From IMG/VR virus record IMGVR_UViG_2778261300_000004, positions 1 to 21,891 of that record: a stretch of DNA of 21,891 nucleotides; one strand, 5' to 3'. Source of the DNA: a virus (taxonomy: Duplodnaviria; Heunggongvirae; Uroviricota; Caudoviricetes). The position numbers were made by a program, and so were the translations under genes. This document shows, piece after piece, positions 3,246-14,111 of the stretch; the stretch's first letter is position 1, and each line of letters starts with the position of its first letter. Below the pieces are notes generated by a model that was given only the letters and a program-made list of their open reading frames with translations, searched no databases and had not been told where the DNA came from.

Positions 3246-4382
3246 TTAATTATGTTTGTTTGCTGCAATGTTAATAAAATACCTTTCAAAAAAATGGAAG
3301 GTTAAACATGACACAACACAAAGAAATATAAAGACAATAGTTAGCTGAAGATAAAAAATACCACCACTCATAGGAAGGTTGTTTTCTTTCATTACTTTAA
3401 AAGCGACATAAAAAATCACCCCCTGAAGTAGATATATACTGTAACTAGCCTCTCCAAGCCTTATAAATCCCTTGGTTCTAAATAGACCAAATAGATCGGC
3501 ACCTGAGCATACAGCAAAGAAACCTATCGCTGAAACAAATATGAGCTTTGTGCTAAGAGTGCCTGGTGAAAGTATAATAATGCTTAATATTGATGCAACC
3601 AACAAAATTTCTGATTGCAATTTTGTTATTTTCACCAGCAATGTTATTTCTTTCACCAACATACCAAAACAAAAAGCCGCCCATAAGTTTGCTTTGGCAT
3701 CTGGGAAAAATGATGGTACAAAATACATGGATAAAAAAGTAATGGCTGAGATGAACTCTAACGATTTTTCTCTAAATAAGTAAAGCAAAGGAAGAATGAA
3801 ATAAAACCCCCACTCCCACACAAGAGTCCATGTAACTCCAGCAGTTACATATCTTGAGTTAATCATCCCGTTTATATCTGGTCTTATATTCGTAAACCCA
3901 CAGTCAAACCAATACAAATAGTTCTGATACTTCTGAATAAAATCAGATGGAAGCCCTGTATAATACAATATTACAACTATAGCCAAAAGTGATGACAACC
4001 AAGCCATTGGCAAGATTCTAAACAGCCTTCCCTTATACATTGAAATCCAGTCAACACGCTCTGAGTCTCTTATTTTCCCCCAAAATAAAAAAGCAGTAAT
4101 CATGAAGAAAAAATAAACCCCAATATTTCCTATATAGTACATAAATGATGATGTGAACCACCATTTATTATTTATGGTAAAATTCAAAAAAAAGTCCATA
4201 TGGTCAAAGACGACCATTGATGCAAGTATATATCTTACACCTGTTAATTGCATATTTCTATGCAGCTTCACGCCTTTATCCATAAATGAGAATAAAGGCA
4301 TGGAAAATATTAAAGAAACAAATAATATAGAACCAAAAACCCATATTGCTAAATATATGCTATTCTGCATGATTGACACCAT
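3246..4382 (-). CDS. Integral-membrane acyltransferase family 3 (O-antigen acetyltransferase-like) moron
   Basis: 378 aa, roughly ten hydrophobic segments, strongly AT-rich relative to neighbours; acyltransferase-3-like N-terminal motif (LTGVRYILASMVVFDHM) and FFFMITAF; own terminator; immediately after the tailspike. Confidence 0.65.
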   Translation of the reverse strand: MVSIMQNSIYLAIWVFGSILFVSLIFSMPLFSFMDKGVKLHRNMQLTGVRYILASMVVFDHMDFFLNFTINNKWWFTSSFMYYIGNIGVYFFFMITAFLFWGKIRDSERVDWISMYKGRLFRILPMAWLSSLLAIVVILYYTGLPSDFIQKYQNYLYWFDCGFTNIRPDINGMINSRYVTAGVTWTLVWEWGFYFILPLLYLFREKSLEFISAITFLSMYFVPSFFPDAKANLWAAFCFGMLVKEITLLVKITKLQSEILLVASILSIIILSPGTLSTKLIFVSAIGFFAVCSGADLFGLFRTKGFIRLGEASYSIYLLQGVIFYVAFKVMKENNLPMSGGIFYLQLTIVFIFLCVVSCLTFHFFERYFINIAANKHN

Positions 4383-7081: not shown

Positions 7082-7101
7082 TACTGTATATTCATACAGT
7101 T
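7082..7101. promoter_or_regulatory. LexA (SOS) box
   Basis: TACTGTATATTCATACAGTT matches the CTGT-N8-ACAG consensus with both arms intact (about 17/20 to TACTGTATATATATACAGTA); 20 bp upstream of ATG 7121. Confidence 0.65.
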
Positions 7102-7120: not shown

Positions 7121-7378
7121 ATGCAGCAGTATCACTATCCACTGGAAAACGGATTTACCGAAAAGATTCACACGCCGGGAGGCGTCAGATCACTGGTGGA
7201 GGGATCGCACTTGATGAAATTACTCCGGGATCTCGATAAAGATGGATTTAATGTCGATGGTCCACTTGCCGAACTGACTGCACTGATTAACTACGTCACC
7301 AGCTCACAGATGTCTATGCAGGATCTGCAAACACATCTCGACTATTGTGCCGAACAATTACGAAAACAAACCCGGTAA
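7121..7378 (+). CDS. Small SOS-regulated protein of unknown function (candidate antirepressor or SOS-induced accessory factor)
   Basis: ATG 7121 with GGAGAAG RBS (track start is an upstream TTG at 7103); 85 aa, acidic and soluble; LexA box at its promoter; a hairpin follows. Confidence 0.5.
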   Translation: MQQYHYPLENGFTEKIHTPGGVRSLVEGSHLMKLLRDLDKDGFNVDGPLAELTALINYVTSSQMSMQDLQTHLDYCAEQLRKQTR

Positions 7379-7385
7379 ATTTAAA

Positions 7386-7401
7386 GGCCGCAAGAGCGGC
7401 C
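7386..7401. terminator. Hairpin between convergent genes (terminator-like)
   Basis: ggccgc / aaga / gcggcc; T-rich tract on the minus strand side, weaker on +. Confidence 0.4.
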
Positions 7402-7402
7402 T

Positions 7403-7414
7403 GTGACATGTCAC
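7403..7414. repeat. 12-bp perfect palindrome GTGACATGTCAC, copy 1 of 2
   Basis: Read directly; an identical copy lies at 13756-13767. Confidence 0.8.
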
Positions 7415-7421
7415 GCTCACG

Positions 7422-7562
7422 TTATGACAAGCCTATGTACCCTGCTACACCAGATAATATCAAAACAACTGCAACAGCAAATTCGCCATCGTGAATGATA
7501 CATTTACGGTTCATAACGCCAAGTGCAACAAGCGCAAACACAACAAGAATAAAAGCAATCAT
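7422..7562 (-). CDS. 46-aa hydrophobic membrane peptide (below the ORF-track cutoff)
   Basis: ATG 7562 with AGGATGAG RBS 10 nt after the 750-aa gene stop; MIAFILVVFALVALGVMNRKCIIHDGEFAVAVVLILSGVAGYIGLS gives two hydrophobic segments; stop at 7422-7424. Confidence 0.4.
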   Translation of the reverse strand: MIAFILVVFALVALGVMNRKCIIHDGEFAVAVVLILSGVAGYIGLS

Positions 7563-7571
7563 TTCTCATCC

Positions 7572-9824
7572 TTATTGCGGAGTGACATCCTGTGGTCGCC
7601 ACCAGTATGTCTGGTTAAACTCTTTCTTCGAACGTTGCTCCATTTTACGCAAATAACCTGGTGAAAAATACTCCTGCATCTGGTTAAAGATCATGTGATC
7701 GAGAGCCGCCTTTAAGTACCAGAGATTCGCACCTGGCATCAGACCTTTCCCCAGCTTAACCAGATCACCACCAGTCTGCTCATTCTTCCCTTCCACAGCA
7801 TTTAACGGTATGCCCTGAGCAATCTTCACTACGTCATCAACCAGACCAGCTACCGGGCCAAGCATCGACGCCAGCGCGCCGCTTCCGTACCTGGTGTGAT
7901 CTGACAATAAAAAGTCACCGTAAAGGCCAAGACCACCACCTTTCAGTAGAGCACCAAGCCAGAATTTTGCGGCATCTTCTCCTGTCATCTCTCGAGGATT
8001 ACGACCAGACGCAAGGTCGTTAAGTTGCTGCGACAAAGCGCCAAGAATGGTCGTACTGGCAATAAACGTCGCAATATATGCCGCACGCCCACCAGCAGAC
8101 GGCATACCCATAGCGCGTGACCAGTGACGCATAACCACCGAGATAGGGAACGATTTAAACAGGAAAACACTTCTCGTTAATTCACCTTTCCATGTTCCAC
8201 GCTGAATACCAGAACCGGTTATCAGTTGCTCACGTGCTCCCGGTGTAATAACAGCCATATCAACTTCTTCAGTTACGGCACCGAGCAGTTTACGCATTGC
8301 CTCAAATTTCACGCGTTCAGGCTCACCAAGATGTTTAACTGCTGAATCAGGGATACGCATAATGCTTTCCGGTGTCAGCATCGTATTATTGCCGTTCCCC
8401 CAGTCCTCCTGTTGCGCCAGACTCCATACGCTCCAGTCTGTGTCAGTAATCCCTTTGCTTTTCAGGATACGATAATCAGAATCATCGAGGCTATGAAGGT
8501 CTGGTGTCCGTGACACTACTTCTCCCAGGCTTCCCATCATGGTTACGCCATAGGCGCGCTTGTGCGCATCTGACCATGCTGTAAGCCCACTGGCACGCAT
8601 TACCGCCGTTGCAGCCCAACGAGACACAGACGGCCCCATATTATCCATCGCCCAGCGGTTAACGCTGCCAAGTAGAGATTCCATCGCCAGACCAGCGCGG
8701 CGCGCCCGCGCAAGCTCAGTACGGTTCGTTGGGTCCATAGCTTCAAGCTGGTTGCGGAATAACTGGTTCATTGGAAGGTTGGTCACCTTCGCAGACAGAT
8801 ACATGGTTCCAAGATCAGAGAACGATGACAGCAACGCGGATCCGAGTCTGCTGGCAACCAGCCAGTTGCGGATATTGTCAGACCATCGCGCGATGTGCGG
8901 ATTCGCTACAGGCTGTGTCTTTCCGGAAATAAAGTTGTACAGATTCTCTGTGTTGTTCGCCAGCCGCTCGACTTTACCGGTTTTACTCGGGTTAGCTGTT
9001 GCCGTTTCTGCCTTAACCTGATCAAGAAGGGAGCGGAAAACATGATCGGGGTTTGGACCATATGTTTCCACCAGAGCAATATCTTTACTGATACCTTCCA
9101 GGTGACCGACCATGATTTCCCATAGAGAGCGATCGCCATAAAGTTGTTGATATTGGAGATAGGAATCTGCATCTTTGAAATGTATCTGTCGTGATGCATT
9201 ACCACGGTTAGCACGTGCGCCGGAAATTCGCATTCCGGTATCAGTAAGCTTATTCAGCCCACCAGTAGCGATCGTGTTATAAGCCTCTCCAAGAAATGCA
9301 GACAACTCGGCATCGTTCATCAGTTGTCCATCGGCTCGGGTATAATATTTGCGATCCAGCTTACCTATAACATCGCTAACCCACTTATCCTTTGATACCG
9401 CCCCAACCTTTTCCATAGAATGATGTTGAGGGATCCCCCAGTTTTCGAGATAGCCAATGTCCCCACCAGCATCATTAAACCGGCGGCGCAGCAGCTCTGT
9501 AACTTCTCTCCACGCCTTAGCACCTTTTCTTGCTTTAGCATTGCCAGTATTTTGCCCCCGCATTTCATATACCAGGTCACGTACGCCCGCTTCATCTTCA
9601 AACAGACCAAAAAAGCGAGGATCAACTGCTTCGAATGCCTCCTGCAATTGACTCAATGCATAATCACGGGTGGCTTTTGTTCTGGATTCAACAGAGAGGA
9701 AATTAGATTTACCGTCTGCATTAAAAGCTATAGTACGGTTAAGAGCGCCAAGTTTCCCATCAGCCCCTTGATAGCTATTGATAAATTTATCCAATCTCTG
9801 ACGCGCGGCTATAGTGAGAGCCAC
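7572..9824 (-). CDS. Large virion protein, probably a DNA-ejection/injection (internal) protein of a podovirus-like particle
   Basis: 750 aa, GTG start; soluble N-terminal part and a C-terminal region with hydrophobic and Gly-rich segments; sits upstream of the tailspike where P22-like phages carry ejection proteins. Not portal-like by eye. Assignment is positional. Confidence 0.4.
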   Translation of the reverse strand: MALTIAARQRLDKFINSYQGADGKLGALNRTIAFNADGKSNFLSVESRTKATRDYALSQLQEAFEAVDPRFFGLFEDEAGVRDLVYEMRGQNTGNAKARKGAKAWREVTELLRRRFNDAGGDIGYLENWGIPQHHSMEKVGAVSKDKWVSDVIGKLDRKYYTRADGQLMNDAELSAFLGEAYNTIATGGLNKLTDTGMRISGARANRGNASRQIHFKDADSYLQYQQLYGDRSLWEIMVGHLEGISKDIALVETYGPNPDHVFRSLLDQVKAETATANPSKTGKVERLANNTENLYNFISGKTQPVANPHIARWSDNIRNWLVASRLGSALLSSFSDLGTMYLSAKVTNLPMNQLFRNQLEAMDPTNRTELARARRAGLAMESLLGSVNRWAMDNMGPSVSRWAATAVMRASGLTAWSDAHKRAYGVTMMGSLGEVVSRTPDLHSLDDSDYRILKSKGITDTDWSVWSLAQQEDWGNGNNTMLTPESIMRIPDSAVKHLGEPERVKFEAMRKLLGAVTEEVDMAVITPGAREQLITGSGIQRGTWKGELTRSVFLFKSFPISVVMRHWSRAMGMPSAGGRAAYIATFIASTTILGALSQQLNDLASGRNPREMTGEDAAKFWLGALLKGGGLGLYGDFLLSDHTRYGSGALASMLGPVAGLVDDVVKIAQGIPLNAVEGKNEQTGGDLVKLGKGLMPGANLWYLKAALDHMIFNQMQEYFSPGYLRKMEQRSKKEFNQTYWWRPQDVTPQ

Positions 9825-9835
9825 ACGACGTTTCT

Positions 9836-10090
9836 TTAATGCCGCTTCACCATGTCAGAAAACTCAAGGCGGAGATCAGCATCTTTAGGCATCGGAATAC
9901 CTTTCGCGTCATCAGTACCTTTACGAGCCGCCGCGCCAGCAAGAATTGTCTGCGCAGCGGTTTCAGGAGACACGGAAACATCCGGATTAAACCAGTTTTT
10001 TTCTGCCAAAATACCACCTGGCTTATCCATCAGTATCCCGGCAACGGCAGCAGATGGAGCGTTGGCACTGATCTGCTGTAGTGCTGACAT
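9836..10090 (-). CDS. Short ORF, probably the C-terminal remnant of a truncated upstream virion gene
   Basis: 84 aa from ATG 10090; stop 12 nt before the 750-aa gene start; nothing phage-structural lies upstream of it, only the tRNA island. Confidence 0.3.
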   Translation of the reverse strand: MSALQQISANAPSAAVAGILMDKPGGILAEKNWFNPDVSVSPETAAQTILAGAAARKGTDDAKGIPMPKDADLRLEFSDMVKRH

Positions 10091-10343
10091 ATACACCTGC
10101 CCACCACCAGTGCTCTGCCTGATGGTAGCGGTCTGGATACGTTTAAGGGGCACCCTCCCTTGCTCGGGCAAACGAACCAGGTAGCCGGAATGTGCAAGTC
10201 GAGCGGTTTTATTCCGCGCACGGGGATTCACCATCCCGGCGATTCGGTGTGACACCTCGGAAGAGACGAGGGTGCAACGATGAGAGCATTTATGGAGCCG
10301 CGACAAAGTGTGGTGCCTTAACAGGCTAAGTGCTCTCAGCGTT

Positions 10344-10420
10344 GTGGCATTAGCTCAGTTGGACAGAGCAACCGCCTTCTAAGCGGTTGGTCGCAGGTTC
10401 GAATCCTGCATGCCACGCCA
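10344..10420 (+). tRNA. tRNA-Arg, anticodon UCU (reads AGA/AGG)
   Basis: Cloverleaf folded by hand: 7-bp acceptor stem GTGGCAT/ATGCCAC, D-arm GCTC..GAGC, anticodon stem ACCGC/GCGGT with loop CTTCTAA, T-arm GCAGG TTCGAAT CCTGC, discriminator G and encoded CCA. Confidence 0.9.
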
Positions 10421-10637: not shown

Positions 10638-10668
10638 ATGCTGCAAACAAATAACACAAGGCCGTGAC

Positions 10669-11487
10669 ATGCTTGACTTCATCCGTGACATTTACTCCTC
10701 TTTCCGCCAAGCATCTCTTGAGCGGGTGAAAAGCCCGTTCCTTGGGGCATTTGTTTTTTCCTGGCTTTGCTTTAATTGGCAGATGTTAGCAATTCTATTT
10801 TTTAGTTCTAAGGATATTGAAAAGCGCCTTGCTATTATTAATGGCTCTTTCGGCATCGTCAGCTTTTTAATTGCGCCAATATGCACTACAGCATTGATAG
10901 TTATCCTTTTACCGCAAATTAATAAATTAATTACAATAATACAAGATAAACCTAACTCAGACACAATTGAAATGAGCCTTGCATCTAAAATAAAGATCGC
11001 CGAACTGCAGCAACTATTAGCAGAAAATGAAGCAAGAAAGAAACTTGCTGATAAAAAAGAAGAACGCTTCATTGAAGAGAATATTATTTCAATAAAAAAA
11101 GACCATGAAAAAGCAATAGATAACCTTAAAGACAAAGAAAGTAAAATCTCAAATCTCACGGACACAATAACTGAACTTCAGAGCAAACTGGTTAAAGCTG
11201 AGGCCACTCTCAAAGTTGAACAGGAGTCAAGATCCCAAGTGCAGAATGAATTGATTATTGAAAAAGAGAACAAGCGGAAATTAGAAGACAACATTCTGCA
11301 CCTTAATTTAAGTTTAAAAAAAAACCAATCAGAATTGGCCATTGCAAAAGAAGCCTATGATAATACCTTGATGGCTTATAATGAACTTAACACAACATTA
11401 AAAAAAGCAGAAAGCTCAATAATAAACTTCAACGCTAACTTTCCTTTTTTAACTGACATAAATAACAGCACCCCAAATACATACTAA
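10669..11487 (+). CDS. AT-rich moron: protein with two N-terminal TM helices and a long coiled coil (candidate exclusion, abortive-infection or host-takeover factor)
   Basis: 272 aa; two N-terminal hydrophobic segments then a K/E/L/N-rich heptad-like region; composition much more AT-rich than flanking phage genes; opposite strand to neighbours; own promoter-like and terminator-like signals. Confidence 0.55.
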   Translation: MLDFIRDIYSSFRQASLERVKSPFLGAFVFSWLCFNWQMLAILFFSSKDIEKRLAIINGSFGIVSFLIAPICTTALIVILLPQINKLITIIQDKPNSDTIEMSLASKIKIAELQQLLAENEARKKLADKKEERFIEENIISIKKDHEKAIDNLKDKESKISNLTDTITELQSKLVKAEATLKVEQESRSQVQNELIIEKENKRKLEDNILHLNLSLKKNQSELAIAKEAYDNTLMAYNELNTTLKKAESSIINFNANFPFLTDINNSTPNTY

Positions 11488-11582
11488 AAAAAAAATAAAA
11501 ATGCATGGGAGCATTTAGTTAGTTTAAATTTAAGTCTAAAGGAGAAAATACAAAAATAAATAACCAATCCACTATGGCATAT

Positions 11583-13052
11583 TTACTCATACGGGTCATA
11601 ATCTATTATAGCCTTACCCTGCTGCTGGCGCGGATCATTAAGTTTTTTTGTGACCGGAAAAGCAAACGTCAGCAGTAGCGCATCGCCTTTACCCGGCGAA
11701 CGCCCAAGCCGCTCCTTGATATCTTCCTTCGGTTCGATAACGATTTTACCGTCCACGCGAACTTTGTACTCTGCCGCCGACAGGTCGTCCGCTGTTTCCT
11801 GGTCATCCAGCATGCCGCCCAGCCTCAGCCATGTCTTGCATGAGTTGAACATCTCCCCACGCTTGTTAAGCATCTGCGGGTCAGTGGACGCACCGCCGAA
11901 CGGAACAAGTTGCCATGTACGTCCCCAGCCATCACCGATTGACTTCAGACCAGTTCCGTAACCGAAGTCGATGAACACTGCGTCAGCCTGGTACTGGTCT
12001 TCAAAGTCAGCGATATGCTTCGCCATAATCAGATCGTCAGTGGTCTTGTTGCCAGTCCACAGCACCTTACTGTGCAGCCCCTGCCGCAGGTATATCACAG
12101 CGTCATCAACGCCGGAGTATGCCGGGTCAACGCCGATTATCACCGGTGCATGTGCCACCTGCGCAGCAGTTACCACCCGTTTCATTGCCTCGTCAGTAAG
12201 ACCGGTAGGGATAAACTGCAATTCAGATGCATCAGGGAATATGCCGCGCACACGGATTTTAACGAAGTCGCTGTCTTCCCCGTAGTCATCAACCCATTTC
12301 TGCAATTGCTGCTTGTTAGTACCTTCCACCGTCCGGCTGTCAATCTGCGCAGTTTTCCAGCGGTGTTTATATTTGCGGAAACATTCACGGAAACGTCCGG
12401 TATTACGCGTCGGGTTTCCGAACGCCACCCAGATAATCTCAGTGTCTTCGTCCGTAAGCGCACCCTCAGCAACTTCCCACACCAGATCCGCAATGTTCGA
12501 CGCTTCATCGAATACCACGATGATGCGTTTGCGCTCGTTGTGTAGTCCGGCGAATGCCTCAGTGTTGTGCTCAGACCAGGGGATTGCGTCAGCTCGCCAC
12601 CGCTTGTCGTGCCCAGGATCATTGCTGTACATCGCAGTAGCGGTACAGGTAAACCAGTCTTTCGTGATAGCAAGGTTCGACCACTTGATAATTTCCGGCC
12701 AGGTCTTCGTTCGTAGCTGGTTGTCGGTGTTGGCGGTCACCACGACCTTACAATCCTCGCAAGTGGACATGCCCCAGTTGATCAGCATTGAGATGAGTGC
12801 TGATTTACCAATACCGTGACCCGAAGCACGTGCCAGCATAAGCGGCTGATAGCGCGTCTCGGGATTCTGCAGGTGATCACGTATCTCTCGGAACGCATCG
12901 GCCTGCCACTGACGTGGGCCGGAAGCATGTGCCAGTTCAGTCCCCTCTTCCCCCCACGGGAACGCATAGAGGGCATAGCCAAGCGGATCGTGAGTGAACC
13001 CTGCAATATCCTCGATCAACTGCTCTTCAGGAGATAACGCTGCATCTGTCAC
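11583..13052 (-). CDS. terL: Terminase large subunit
   Basis: 489 aa; Walker A-like SGHGIGKS; GTG start overlaps the terS stop (GTGA). Confidence 0.8.
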   Translation of the reverse strand: MTDAALSPEEQLIEDIAGFTHDPLGYALYAFPWGEEGTELAHASGPRQWQADAFREIRDHLQNPETRYQPLMLARASGHGIGKSALISMLINWGMSTCEDCKVVVTANTDNQLRTKTWPEIIKWSNLAITKDWFTCTATAMYSNDPGHDKRWRADAIPWSEHNTEAFAGLHNERKRIIVVFDEASNIADLVWEVAEGALTDEDTEIIWVAFGNPTRNTGRFRECFRKYKHRWKTAQIDSRTVEGTNKQQLQKWVDDYGEDSDFVKIRVRGIFPDASELQFIPTGLTDEAMKRVVTAAQVAHAPVIIGVDPAYSGVDDAVIYLRQGLHSKVLWTGNKTTDDLIMAKHIADFEDQYQADAVFIDFGYGTGLKSIGDGWGRTWQLVPFGGASTDPQMLNKRGEMFNSCKTWLRLGGMLDDQETADDLSAAEYKVRVDGKIVIEPKEDIKERLGRSPGKGDALLLTFAFPVTKKLNDPRQQQGKAIIDYDPYE

Positions 13053-13645
13053 TGATTGCCATCCTGACGTTCTTTCAGTCTCTTCCTGGCTGCTGCTATG
13101 CGATCAGCAATTGTCACATTCACATTAACATCCATGCGTTCTTTGAACGCGTTGACGTCGACGTGCTTACCAATCAGTTCGAGGTTCTTCACCTTGTCAG
13201 GCCATTTAATTTTTTTGAGGATTGTCTCTATCGAATCCTCGTTCATGTTCATGATGGTCGATGACAGATCAAAGCCGCTAAGCGTAGTGCGCCAGATTTT
13301 CGGCCACTCGCGGATTGGCTTAAGGCTCCCATCGTCGTTGAGGATATCAATCACGTCCATCTGGTCGATCTCCACCAGGCGCATGAGAACGTAATCGGCA
13401 CTGACGCGCATTCGTTTGTTGCGCTCCTCCATCAACTCGGCAATCCGTTTTTGAATGCGTTCATCGCGCATCATGACACTGGCTTTAACTGCCGCTGTAT
13501 TTGGGGAGAATCCTGCGTTAATCGCTGCCTGAGTCTGGTTTTCAGGCGTTTTGATGTATGACTGGCAATAAGCCTCCTGCATTGCTGTTAGTGGCTTAAA
13601 TTGCGTTGATTTGCGTTTATAGGTTTTAGGTTCAGCAGACATCAT
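13049..13645 (-). CDS. terS: Terminase small subunit
   Basis: Most likely start is the ATG-ATG at 13645 (MMSAEPKTYKRK...); the track ORF begins at an upstream TTG (13723); basic helical protein directly before and coupled to terL. Confidence 0.65.
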   Translation of the reverse strand: MMSAEPKTYKRKSTQFKPLTAMQEAYCQSYIKTPENQTQAAINAGFSPNTAAVKASVMMRDERIQKRIAELMEERNKRMRVSADYVLMRLVEIDQMDVIDILNDDGSLKPIREWPKIWRTTLSGFDLSSTIMNMNEDSIETILKKIKWPDKVKNLELIGKHVDVNAFKERMDVNVNVTIADRIAAARKRLKERQDGNQ

Positions 13646-13755
13646 AACCACCGTGGTAATAGTTACCGTTGTGGTAATAGTACCATGCAAAATAAAGCCG
13701 CCATAGTTGGCGGCAGTATTCAAAACCCGTCAAATTCATCATGCATAATCTACTC

Positions 13756-13767
13756 GTGACATGTCAC
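13756..13767. repeat. 12-bp perfect palindrome GTGACATGTCAC, copy 2 of 2
   Basis: Read directly; overlaps the stop codon of the 13764-14111 gene, just upstream of terS. Confidence 0.8.
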
Positions 13768-14111
13768 ACTATTAATTTCGTTTCATGCCAGCCTTTAGTC
13801 ACCCAGCATTGCGAGTCACCATTACACGGGCATGAATTAACTGGAACTCTCTCGCCGCACTTACCGCAACGTTTTCTGCTGATCGATTTTATACGCCCGC
13901 GCACACGTGCATCATCCTGGCGGATCAGCAGCGCGATGTACTCGGCCATTTCATAGGGATCGCGACCAGGGCGCCGGGCGGCGCAGTTCCGCGCTAGCAT
14001 TTCCTGCTCCTGCTTATCCAGCACCAGTTCAATTTTGCGCTCACCGGCGGCGGACTGCCGAGCGCGCTGCGCGGCTTTGCGTTCTGCGGGGGATTTAGCC
14101 ACGAATCGCAC
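13764..14111 (-). CDS. Small basic protein with Cys-rich C-terminus (possible zinc-binding regulator)
   Basis: Track ORF with GTG start; a second GTG with GGAG RBS three codons in; C-terminal CGKCG...CPCNGDSQC cysteine cluster. Confidence 0.4.
   Translation of the reverse strand: MRFVAKSPAERKAAQRARQSAAGERKIELVLDKQEQEMLARNCAARRPGRDPYEMAEYIALLIRQDDARVRGRIKSISRKRCGKCGERVPVNSCPCNGDSQCWVTKGWHETKLIV

What the first reader, a model, noticed from the sequence alone, without database searches (positions are those of the whole stretch)
7403..7414. 12-bp perfect palindrome GTGACATGTCAC present twice, at gene 3' boundaries (second copy 13756-13767)
Two identical copies in 22 kb are well beyond chance for a specific 12-mer. 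One overlaps the stop of the Cys-rich gene just upstream of terS; the other lies 8 nt past the stop of the 46-aa membrane peptide, next to a hairpin. Partial copies (GTGACATG, GTGACAT) flank the start of the AT-rich 2TM gene at 10664-10690. It could be a binding site for a late regulator, a module-boundary recombination motif or a processing signal. The arms are 4 bp apart, so it is not CRP-like.
Basis: seen in the sequence. Interest (0 to 1): 0.45.

Follow-up and report, generated by a model that had tools for sequence, protein, structure and literature searches.

The report
Conserved phage palindrome beside regulator gene
The repeated 12-base palindrome is real: it is a conserved DNA signal that accompanies one uncharacterised small DNA-binding protein gene in many temperate phages of enteric bacteria and Vibrio, is most likely that protein's binding site, and marks the ends of transcription units.

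Summary
Within the window the evidence is only moderate: a repeated perfect 12-nt palindrome appeared in 5 of 300 shuffles.

The comparative evidence is decisive.
- The window is a degraded epsilon15/phiV10-like prophage.
- Intact relatives carry the motif at three fixed junctions: the stop codon of a 112-aa Cys-rich gene (epsilon15 gp49 / N15 gp46 family), after terL, and after the 46-aa gene.
- In 60 genomes found through that protein alone, GTGAC-NN-GTCAC occurs 82 times against about 1 expected.
- In 80 lambdoid control loci without the protein, the exact motif occurs 0 times.
- The motif also accompanies the gene in ZF40 (myovirus), N15 (siphovirus, centre TG) and a Vibrio phage (centre AC).
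- The half-sites never change. Centre variants occur as reverse-complement pairs. The RNA hairpin is weak.

The protein model resembles ribbon-helix-helix DNA binders.

Best reading: the motif is the dimer-binding site of this regulator. It sits at operon boundaries, often 0-4 nt before an intrinsic terminator. Its effect on transcription is inferred, not shown.

It resembles matS (13 bp) but fails the matS and MatP membership tests. I found no description of it in the searchable literature.

The parts
13756..13767 (.). Palindrome copy A (GTGACATGTCAC). It overlaps the TGA stop of the regulator gene at the end of the early-right operon.
   Evidence: The same position is occupied in epsilon15, ZF40 and N15, and in 34 of 60 genomes found through the protein alone, plus 3 with one mismatch.
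7403..7414 (.). Palindrome copy C. It lies 7 nt after the stop of the 46-aa gene and directly abuts an intrinsic terminator.
   Evidence: The same cassette occurs in phiV10 (19493), epsilon15 (19517) and 26 epsilon15-like phage records.
13764..14102 (-). Gene for the 112-aa regulator of the epsilon15 gp49 / phiV10 p55 / N15 gp46 family (PHROG 536). It has a basic N-terminal helix, a ribbon-helix-helix-like core and a C-terminal Cys cluster.
7375..7402 (-). Intrinsic terminator: hairpin 7402-7385, then TTTAAATTT. It ends the late segment that closes with the 46-aa gene.
   Evidence: Terminator scan. RNA fold gives -18 kcal/mol, z = -3.7.
13688..13714 (-). Intrinsic terminator (GCCGCCAACTATGGCGGC + TTTATTTTG), 41 nt downstream of copy A, between the regulator gene and the terS promoter.
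13720..13746 (-). Mini-ORF MHDEFDGF*. It starts 9 nt after copy A and ends 5 nt before the terminator. Relatives carry a 70-aa gene here with the same C-terminus.
   Evidence: Read. Homologous mini-ORFs occur in L124, L125, L127 and L137.
13645..13686 (-). terS promoter region: an extended -10 (TGGTACTAT, 13685-13677) overlapped by two repressor-type operators (TTACC-N5-GGTAA at 13663-13677 and 13645-13659).
   Evidence: The epsilon15 record annotates the equivalent repressor site upstream of terS. The promoter assignment is my own reading of the sequence.
7422..7562 (-). 46-aa membrane peptide gene (PHROG 7892), the last gene of the late segment that copy C closes.
   Evidence: phiV10 p21 is its homologue.
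7121..7378 (+). 85-aa gene convergent on copy C (PHROG 450, weak antirepressor similarity). It is preceded by a LexA box at 7084-7099.

Best explanation
GTGACATGTCAC (general form Y-GTGAC-NN-GTCAC-R) is the DNA recognition site of the small regulator whose gene ends inside copy A. That regulator belongs to the epsilon15 gp49 / phiV10 p55 / N15 gp46 family.

The protein is predicted to have three parts:
- a conserved basic N-terminal helix;
- a ribbon-helix-helix-type core that would dimerise;
- a C-terminal four-cysteine, presumably zinc-binding, module.

A dimer would read the two invariant 5-bp half-sites symmetrically.

The sites lie at the ends of transcription units. In epsilon15-like phages these are:
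- (A) the end of the early-right operon, over the regulator's own stop codon;
- (B) the junction after terL, lost in this window;
- (C) the end of the portal-to-46-aa late segment.

In each case the site lies 0-50 nt upstream of a strong intrinsic terminator for the unit being ended, and often just 5' of the next gene's ribosome-binding site.

I infer that the bound protein acts on elongating RNA polymerase at these boundaries. Most likely it acts as a boundary or roadblock element that insulates neighbouring, often convergent, modules. Less likely it licenses read-through of the adjacent terminator.

What is shown:
- the motif exists and is strongly enriched;
- it is linked to the regulator gene;
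- its conservation pattern is DNA-symmetric;
- it is associated with terminators.

What is inferred:
- that this protein binds the motif;
- the direction of its effect on transcription.

In this window the prophage has lost its portal-to-tail genes, so both copies are inherited relics. The regulator gene itself is still intact.
For: - In 60 species genomes retrieved through the protein only, GTGAC-NN-GTCAC occurs 82 times in 1.13 Mb, against about 1 expected. The exact motif occurs 67 times against 0.05-0.24 expected under Markov orders 1-5. The next most frequent 12-nt palindrome occurs 6 times, and 56 of 60 loci have at least one site.
- 34 of 60 have the motif at the regulator's stop codon, plus 3 with one mismatch. 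These include loci where it lies 4-10 nt after the stop, so it is not a coding constraint.
- Complete phages with unrelated virion modules all carry it: epsilon15 has 3 copies; phiV10 has 2 plus one copy with one mismatch; ZF40 has 3; N15 has 3 (GTGACTGGTCAC, one over the gene 46 stop); Vibrio phage K233 has 3; a P2-like Yersinia phage has 1.
- Controls lacking the gene: lambda and P22 have 0 copies. 80 lambda-Q loci (1.33 Mb) have 0 exact copies and one homologous GTGACGTGTCAC coding position. Half-site density is the same in all these genomes.
- Centre variants occur as reverse-complement pairs: AC 4 and GT 3; CT 2 and AG 1.
- Inside cII/YdaT-like genes the motif is kept at codon level: Ser is always TCA, while the neighbouring Gly codon varies.
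- 32 of 99 sites have a strict terminator starting 0-60 nt beyond the motif, against 7.3% of random positions. In 16 sites it starts within 0-4 nt.
- The motif is distinct from the prophage repressor operators TTACC-N5-GGTAA.
Against: - 23 of 60 homologues have no motif at their 3' end.
- The Yersinia P2-like homologue lacks the N-terminal part, yet that genome still holds a copy 3.4 kb away.
- The half-site stays invariant while the protein diverges to 35% identity. That would also fit a conserved host protein.
- The position relative to promoters is not fixed, and site B has the opposite orientation to late transcription. No single transcriptional mechanism fits all sites.
- N15 and P2-like phages have other late regulators.
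Confidence: 0.55

Rival explanations
1. The motif is bound by a conserved host protein rather than by the phage regulator. A MatP-like or SlmA-like nucleoid protein is the obvious candidate. Regulator gene and motif would then be neighbours only because both sit at the operon end.
For: - The half-site GTGAC is identical to the matS half-site. The outer GTGA...TCAC is shared with matS and the SlmA site.
- The half-site does not change across hosts from Vibrio to Escherichia, although the phage protein diverges to 35% identity.
- By my recollection, not tested here, the hosts of motif-bearing phages are those that possess MatP.
Against: - matS is 13 bp, GTGAC[AG]N[TC]GTCAC. The phage motif is 12 bp, so the half-sites are 1 bp closer and rotated.
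- Published work reports that matS is avoided in prophages.
- The motif is absent from lambda, P22 and 80 lambdoid loci from the same hosts, but present wherever the regulator gene is. This ties it to the phage gene.
Confidence: 0.12
2. The element works in RNA. It would be a small hairpin or protein-binding box in the transcript, either a nut-like antitermination site upstream of terminators or a translational operator just 5' of the next gene's Shine-Dalgarno.
For: - The motif is followed by a terminator in the direction of the transcript being ended.
- It often lies 9-12 nt upstream of the next start codon.
- A palindrome gives the same RNA from either strand.
- The regulator's N-terminus is arginine-rich and its C-terminus is a Cys cluster.
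Against: - Five-bp arms with a 2-nt centre cannot form a normal hairpin. The best fold is a 4-bp stem at -2.7 kcal/mol, matched or beaten by 41 of 200 shuffles.
- Centre variants occur as reverse-complement pairs at the same site (AC versus GT). These are equivalent in DNA but not in RNA.
- The spacing to site-A terminators varies from 0 to 50 nt.
Confidence: 0.1
3. The motif is a recombination site, or the core of a small mobile cassette of motif plus terminator. It would promote module exchange and moron insertion.
For: - Unrelated sequences abut the motif within 1-2 nt. At least eight different flanks occur on the terS side of site A, and many different upstream genes occur at sites B and C.
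- The 200-bp indel between the window and its intact relative ends 2 nt from copy A.
- Site B travels with opposite-strand morons.
Against: - The same pattern is expected if the motif is simply conserved for function while its surroundings turn over.
- No dedicated recombinase is linked to it, and there are no target-site duplications or terminal repeats.
- The motif also occurs inside conserved coding sequences.
Confidence: 0.08
4. The motif is a promoter element, because GTGACA resembles the -35 hexamer on both strands. It could alternatively be an upstream activator site for late promoters.
For: - The promoter scan pairs GTGACA with CATGAT at an 18-nt spacing at site A.
- The gene sits immediately upstream of terS, as RinA-type late activators do in Gram-positive phages (own knowledge).
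Against: - No conserved -10 lies at a fixed distance across sites (read).
- The distance from motif to the terS -10 differs by 18 nt between the window and epsilon15.
- A terminator lies between motif A and terS.
- Sites B and C would drive antisense transcripts.
- The late segments carry their own repressor operators.
Confidence: 0.05

Closest known systems
matS sites bound by MatP (E. coli Ter macrodomain)
   Different: matS is 13 bp with a 3-bp centre R-N-Y, whereas this motif is 12 bp with a 2-bp centre. The phage protein shows no sequence relationship to MatP (hhalign probability 0.1; no Pfam MatP domains). The sites are in phages, not in Ter.
SlmA binding site (GTGAGTACTCAC; sequence recalled from memory)
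   Same: Both are 12-bp palindromes with the same outer GTGA...TCAC (notes the shared flanking 4 bp).
   Different: The inner positions differ (GTAC versus CATG). SlmA is a TetR-family protein, and nothing here links the motif to SlmA.
Stoperators of mycobacteriophage L5 (own knowledge: Brown et al. 1997)
   Same: Both are short protein-binding sites scattered through a temperate phage genome at gene boundaries. In L5 they block elongating RNA polymerase rather than initiation, which is the mechanism I favour here.
   Different: L5 sites are asymmetric and orientation-dependent, number about 30, and are bound by the prophage repressor. Here the site is symmetric, occurs 1-3 times per genome, and is distinct from the repressor operators.
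Ribbon-helix-helix repressors with short palindromic operators (Arc, Mnt, MetJ, CopG, TA antitoxins)
   Same: The predicted fold class of the linked protein matches, as does a short symmetric operator.
   Different: Those operators lie at promoters, 5' of the regulated gene. Here the prime site is at the 3' end of the regulator's own gene and next to terminators. The protein also carries an extra Cys-cluster domain.
Lambda Q / QBE and N / nut antitermination; RinA-type late activators encoded just upstream of terS (own knowledge)
   Same: In all of them a small regulator is encoded at the early/late junction and a cis site precedes a terminator.
   Different: QBE lies within a promoter and nut acts in RNA. 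No promoter is associated with the motif, and the RNA structure is weak. There is no homology to Q, N or RinA.
PeSL promoter/stem-loop cassettes of T4-type phages (own knowledge: Arbiol et al. 2010)
   Same: Both are short conserved regulatory cassettes, including a terminator stem-loop, found at boundaries of variable gene modules.
   Different: PeSLs carry an early promoter. Here the conserved core is a 12-bp palindrome adjacent to several different hairpin sequences.

Membership tests
matS (MatP binding site) | 13-bp consensus GTGAC[AG]N[TC]GTCAC | tested here: not met
   Both window copies and all phage copies are 12 bp with a 2-bp centre. No matS 13-mer occurs in the window, epsilon15, phiV10, ZF40 or N15. 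One occurs in Vibrio phage K233. Consensus taken.
matS (MatP binding site) | Bound by MatP; confined to the Ter macrodomain | not testable with these tools
   No binding data are available. The element lies in a prophage between yfgI and guaA.
MatP protein family | Sequence homology to MatP (Pfam MatP N- and C-terminal domains) | tested here: not met
   hhalign of the family profile against E. coli MatP gives probability 0.1. No Pfam hits appear even at E = 10.
Ribbon-helix-helix DNA-binding superfamily (for the linked protein) | Beta-strand, helix, helix core resembling solved RHH proteins | tested here: inconclusive
Ribbon-helix-helix DNA-binding superfamily (for the linked protein) | Dimerisation through an antiparallel beta-sheet that reads the major groove | not testable with these tools
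   Only a monomer could be modelled.
CRP/FNR-type site | TGTGA-N6-TCACA spacing | tested here: not met
   The GTGA/TCAC arms are 4 bp apart.
Prophage repressor operator of epsilon15-like phages | ATTACC-N5-GGTAAT | tested here: not met
   Eight such sites are in the window, all at other positions. The epsilon15 record's annotated repressor sites are a different sequence.
Intrinsic terminator | G+C-rich hairpin followed by a U-run | tested here: not met
   The palindrome alone folds to -2.7 kcal/mol, no better than shuffles, and has no U-run. The terminators are the separate adjacent hairpins.
L5-type stoperator | Asymmetric site, one orientation relative to transcription, bound by the immunity repressor | tested here: not met
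   The site is symmetric, occurs in both orientations relative to late transcription, and differs from the repressor operator.
Lambda-type nut site | boxA plus a stable boxB RNA hairpin bound by an N protein | tested here: not met
   There is no stable RNA hairpin. No N homologue was detected for the linked protein. boxA was not searched for.

The most novel reading that the evidence does not exclude
The regulator is a DNA-tethered switch for intrinsic terminators. It would be a ribbon-helix-helix/zinc protein that binds a palindrome placed 0-4 nt (up to about 50 nt) upstream of a terminator hairpin. From there it would contact RNA polymerase as it pauses at the U-tract, turning operon boundaries on or off. 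This would resemble a Q-like factor stationed at the terminator rather than at the promoter. That mode of elongation control has not been described, and it would be shared by podo-, myo- and siphoviruses of Enterobacterales and Vibrio.

A second unexcluded novel reading is a phage MatP/matS mimic that interferes with host chromosome-organising machinery.
Probability: 0.12. Interest if true: 0.8.

Novelty: new member of a known kind. Interest (0 to 1): 0.5.

Why it matters
- If the pairing is confirmed, it assigns a cis-site, and hence a testable function, to a widespread family of hypothetical phage proteins. The family (epsilon15 gp49, phiV10 p55, N15 gp46, phiKO2 gp45, ZF40 gp22) has at least 788 clusters in the protein collection and belongs to no Pfam or NCBIfam family.
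- It would give a handle on how epsilon15-like phages, which lack Q, N or Ogr homologues, delimit their early, late and moron transcription units.
- phiV10 is used as a reporter phage for E. coli O157:H7.
- The motif is also a practical marker of module junctions in these prophages.
- Its near-identity to matS, one base pair shorter, raises a specific question about cross-talk with, or avoidance of, MatP.

Tried and rejected
- **Extended asymmetric 14-mer CGTGACATGTCACA.** All three copies share it, but across loci the flanks reduce to a symmetric Y...R. The asymmetry is not meaningful.
- **Specific homology of the regulator to MatP.** Rejected at sequence level. Only a generic RHH fold resemblance remains.
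- **Sequence searches of the regulator.** PDB, NCBIfam, Pfam (also at E = 10), PADLOC and BFVD gave nothing informative.
- **Motif as -35 element or activator site.** There is no consistent -10 and no phase-conserved distance to the terS promoter (and my reading).
- **Motif as the prophage repressor operator or a LexA box.** These are different sequences.
- **RNA hairpin.** Weak.
- **Partial copies at 10664 and 10685.** Not beyond chance.
- **Literature.** A string search for the motif and the N15 variant found only unrelated primer sequences. The epsilon15 genome paper and the SPC32H antirepressor paper are not held, so I cannot exclude that the motif is mentioned there.
- **Co-occurrence of motif and regulator in the 14-mer-selected IMG/VR loci.** Not assessable, because only part of each contig is held.
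- **afdb50 fold search.** Unavailable.

Full report
**1. Observation**

GTGACATGTCAC occurs exactly at 7403-7414 and 13756-13767. There are no further matches with up to two mismatches.

- Copy 13756 contains the TGA stop (13766-13764, minus strand) of the Cys-rich ORF 13764-14111, which lies upstream of terS.
- Copy 7403 lies 7 nt after the stop of the 46-aa ORF 7422-7562 (minus strand). It abuts the hairpin 7385-7402, which the terminator scan calls a terminator on the minus strand.

The claim that two copies are well beyond chance is true only for a pre-specified word:
- The window holds 69 repeated 12-mers, against about 37 in shuffles.
- A repeated perfect 12-nt palindrome arose in 5 of 300 dinucleotide shuffles.
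- The half-site GTGACAT occurs 9 times against 2.6 expected, but four of those belong to the two palindromes. The partial copies at 10664 and 10685 carry no weight by themselves.

**2. Context**

The intact relative has three exact copies:
- **Site A** lies over the stop codon of the 112-aa Cys-rich gene.
- **Site B** lies after terL, next to the terminator of an opposite-strand moron.
- **Site C** lies after the 46-aa gene.

epsilon15 itself has the same three copies. phiV10 has sites B and C, plus site A with one mismatch. In the window, site B has been replaced by an AT-rich 272-aa gene on the plus strand.

**3. The motif is conserved while its surroundings turn over**

Three contexts recurred:
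- At site A, the 3' end of the regulator gene lies on one side and at least eight unrelated sequences on the other.
- At sites B and C, the motif is followed after 0-4 nt by one of several different terminator hairpins, and many different genes lie upstream.
- Between the window and L001, a 200-bp indel (a 70-aa gene) ends 2 nt from copy A.

The motif is therefore, descriptively, a module-boundary element.

**4. Unbiased test through the protein**

A profile of the Cys-rich protein (A1) retrieved 60 loci from 60 species-representative genomes, with no reference to the motif. The genera include Citrobacter, Klebsiella, Pantoea, Erwinia, Serratia, Yersinia, Xenorhabdus, Providencia and Rahnella.

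In these 1.13 Mb:
- GTGAC-NN-GTCAC occurs 82 times against about 1 expected.
- The exact motif occurs 67 times against 0.05-0.24 expected under Markov orders 1-5.
- The next most common 12-nt palindrome occurs 6 times.
- 56 of 60 loci have at least one site.
- 34 of 60 have the pattern at the end of the regulator gene, and 3 more have it with one mismatch.
- In several Xenorhabdus, Erwinia, Rahnella and Yersinia loci it lies 4-10 nt after the stop codon, so coding does not explain it.

**5. Association across virion types, with controls**

Homologues of the protein occur in phages with unrelated structural modules. Each complete genome I fetched carries the motif family:

| Phage | Type | Sites |
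|---|---|---|
| ZF40 | myovirus | 3 exact: 3 nt after the regulator's stop, inside the cII-like gene, and in an early-left gene |
| N15 | siphovirus, 37% identity | 3 copies of GTGACTGGTCAC: over the gene 46 stop, in repA, and upstream of the antirepressor-operon promoter |
| Vibrio phage K233 | siphovirus, 35% identity | GTGACACGTCAC twice (one 19 nt upstream of the terS ATG) and GTGACGCGTCAC once |
| Yersinia vB_YenM_42.18 | P2-like, truncated homologue | 1 copy |

Controls without the gene:
- Lambda and P22 have none.
- 80 loci around lambda-Q homologues (1.33 Mb, no regulator) have zero exact copies. They share one homologous GTGACGTGTCAC coding position.
- Half-site density is the same in all these genomes (1.3-2 per kb). 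Only the inverted pairing is enriched.
- The site-C cassette is found in 26 INPHARED records, all epsilon15-like.

**6. DNA or RNA**

Four observations favour recognition of duplex DNA by a symmetric dimer over an RNA element:
- The two 5-bp arms are invariant. The 2-bp centre varies, and its variants come as reverse-complement pairs: AC 4 and GT 3; CT 2 and AG 1. These are equivalent on DNA but not in RNA.
- The RNA form folds only as a 4-bp stem at -2.7 kcal/mol, matched or beaten by 41 of 200 shuffles.
- Site B has the opposite orientation to sites A and C relative to late transcription.
- Inside cII/YdaT-like genes, 12 of 19 homologues carry the exact motif as [C/T]GT GAC ATG TCA C. Ser is always TCA and Asp is GAC in 12 of 13, while the preceding Gly codon varies among GGT, GGC and GGG. 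This indicates selection on the DNA sequence.

**7. The linked protein**

The protein belongs to PHROG 536 (transcriptional regulator). It has no Pfam, NCBIfam or PDB sequence match.
- The AF2 model (44-sequence alignment, pLDDT 83) shows a basic N-terminal helix, a helix-loop-helix core and a Cys-rich C-terminal module.
- The invariant residues cluster in the N-terminal helix (R7, K8, Q11, R12) and in four cysteines.
- My own reading, not a test: AERKAAQRxRQ resembles a bZIP basic region, and the half-site contains TGAC, the bZIP half-site.

**8. Relation to terminators and promoters**

- 32 of 99 sites have a strict terminator starting 0-60 nt beyond the motif, against 7.3% of random positions. 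In 16 it starts within 0-4 nt, and the hairpins belong to at least three unrelated sequence families.
- At sites A, B and C the order is motif then strong terminator, in the direction of the unit being ended. These units are the early-right operon, the moron, and the portal-to-46-aa segment.
- The region from the regulator stop to terS (minus strand) reads: motif, mini-ORF MHDEFDGF*, terminator, an extended -10 overlapped by two repressor-type operators, then the terS ATG.
- The epsilon15 record annotates such operators upstream of terS, gp3 and the tailspike gene. The late segments therefore seem to have their own repressor-controlled promoters, and the motif is not that operator.
- No -10 lies at a fixed distance from the motif. 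The distance to the terS -10 differs by 18 nt between the window and epsilon15. An activator or promoter role is therefore unlikely.

**9. Interpretation**

The best-supported statement is that the palindrome is the operator of the gp49/gp46-family protein.

I infer that it acts on transcription across module boundaries. I favour insulation or roadblock over antitermination, for three reasons:
- the late segments appear to be self-sufficient;
- several sites lie inside or at the start of genes;
- two of the three epsilon15 sites sit at convergent junctions.

This step is not shown. The rivals are a host factor, an RNA element, a recombination site and a promoter element. They are listed in the rival-explanations section with the evidence for and against each.

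**10. Comparison with known systems**

- The closest sequence relative is matS, GTGAC[AG]N[TC]GTCAC. The phage motif is one base pair shorter.
- The protein is not a MatP homologue.
- Prophages are reported to avoid matS.
- The closest functional analogues are short RHH operators and, for the proposed mode of action, L5 stoperators.
- I found no paper in the searchable library that contains the motif string. The epsilon15 and SPC32H papers could not be read.

Noticed in passing
window 1275-21891 (versus L001): The prophage is defective. Relative to an intact epsilon15-like prophage at the same yfgI-guaA site, it lacks the portal, capsid and most tail genes (L001 about 10990-13413 and 13695-24909), plus parts of the early region. 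The 750-aa and 156-aa ORFs at 7572-10306 are fusion remnants.
   Followed up: partly
window 7084-7099 and 7121-7378 (+): A perfect LexA box, CTGTATATTCATACAG, lies just upstream of an 85-aa gene (PHROG 450, weak match to an antirepressor PHROG). This suggests an SOS-controlled antirepressor like that reported for epsilon15-like phage SPC32H. Similar LexA-box promoters follow motif A in L122, L123, L128 and L129.
   Followed up: partly
window 10622, 13645, 13663, 17014, 17062, 17775, 17837, 18563: There are eight repressor-type operators TTACC-N5-GGTAA, against 0.5 expected. Two overlap an extended -10 (TGGTACTAT) just upstream of terS. The late terminase operon therefore looks directly repressor-controlled.
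   Followed up: partly
window 13720-13746 (-): The conserved mini-ORF MHDEFDGF* lies between motif A and the terminator and ends 5 nt before the hairpin. Relatives have a 70-aa gene ending ...YDEFDGL* at the same place. Other genera have M[HRLT]DEFDGF*. It may be a leader-peptide or translation-coupled effect on the terminator.
   Followed up: no
window 10669-11487 (+): This is an AT-rich (GC about 0.3) 272-aa opposite-strand gene (PHROG 13369; weak coiled-coil hits to SMC and LmuB). It occupies the slot where relatives carry a Gp49-family moron plus the motif-terminator cassette. A repressor-type operator lies 33 nt upstream of its start.
   Followed up: partly
window 13049-13723 (-): The terS ORF as usually annotated (TTG start, 224 aa, as in phiV10 and RefSeq) runs through the terminator and the operators. 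The real start is probably the ATG at 13645 or 13642, as in the shorter epsilon15 annotation.
   Followed up: no
window 10344-10420 (+): A tRNA-Arg (anticodon TCT) is retained inside the degraded prophage.
   Followed up: yes
window 3246-4382 (-): An Acyl_transf_3 O-acetyltransferase gene (378 aa) sits at the serotype-conversion slot next to the tailspike gene, like oac of phiV10.
   Followed up: no
L170 6138, L184 7622 and 10 other loci: The motif lies inside cII/YdaT-like genes, encoding [RC]DMS, with codon-level conservation. These are prophages whose regulator homologue often lacks the motif at its own stop codon.
   Followed up: yes
L008, L013, L018, L070, L111, L120; L159 256: In some lambdoid contigs the exact motif forms codons 2-5 of a Q-like antiterminator (ATG CGT GAC ATG TCA CAG = MRDMSQ...). 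Whether this is functional or coincidental is unknown. One of these loci also holds the regulator.
   Followed up: partly
L188 19491: Vibrio phage K233 carries one true 13-bp matS-type site (GTGACACCGTCAC) in addition to its three 12-bp sites.
   Followed up: no
L187 11663-11760: In the P2-like Yersinia phage, the single exact copy has a one-mismatch copy (GTGACATGGCAC) 33 nt upstream and a further GTGACA half-site downstream. The cluster lies in the non-essential region before the portal gene.
   Followed up: no
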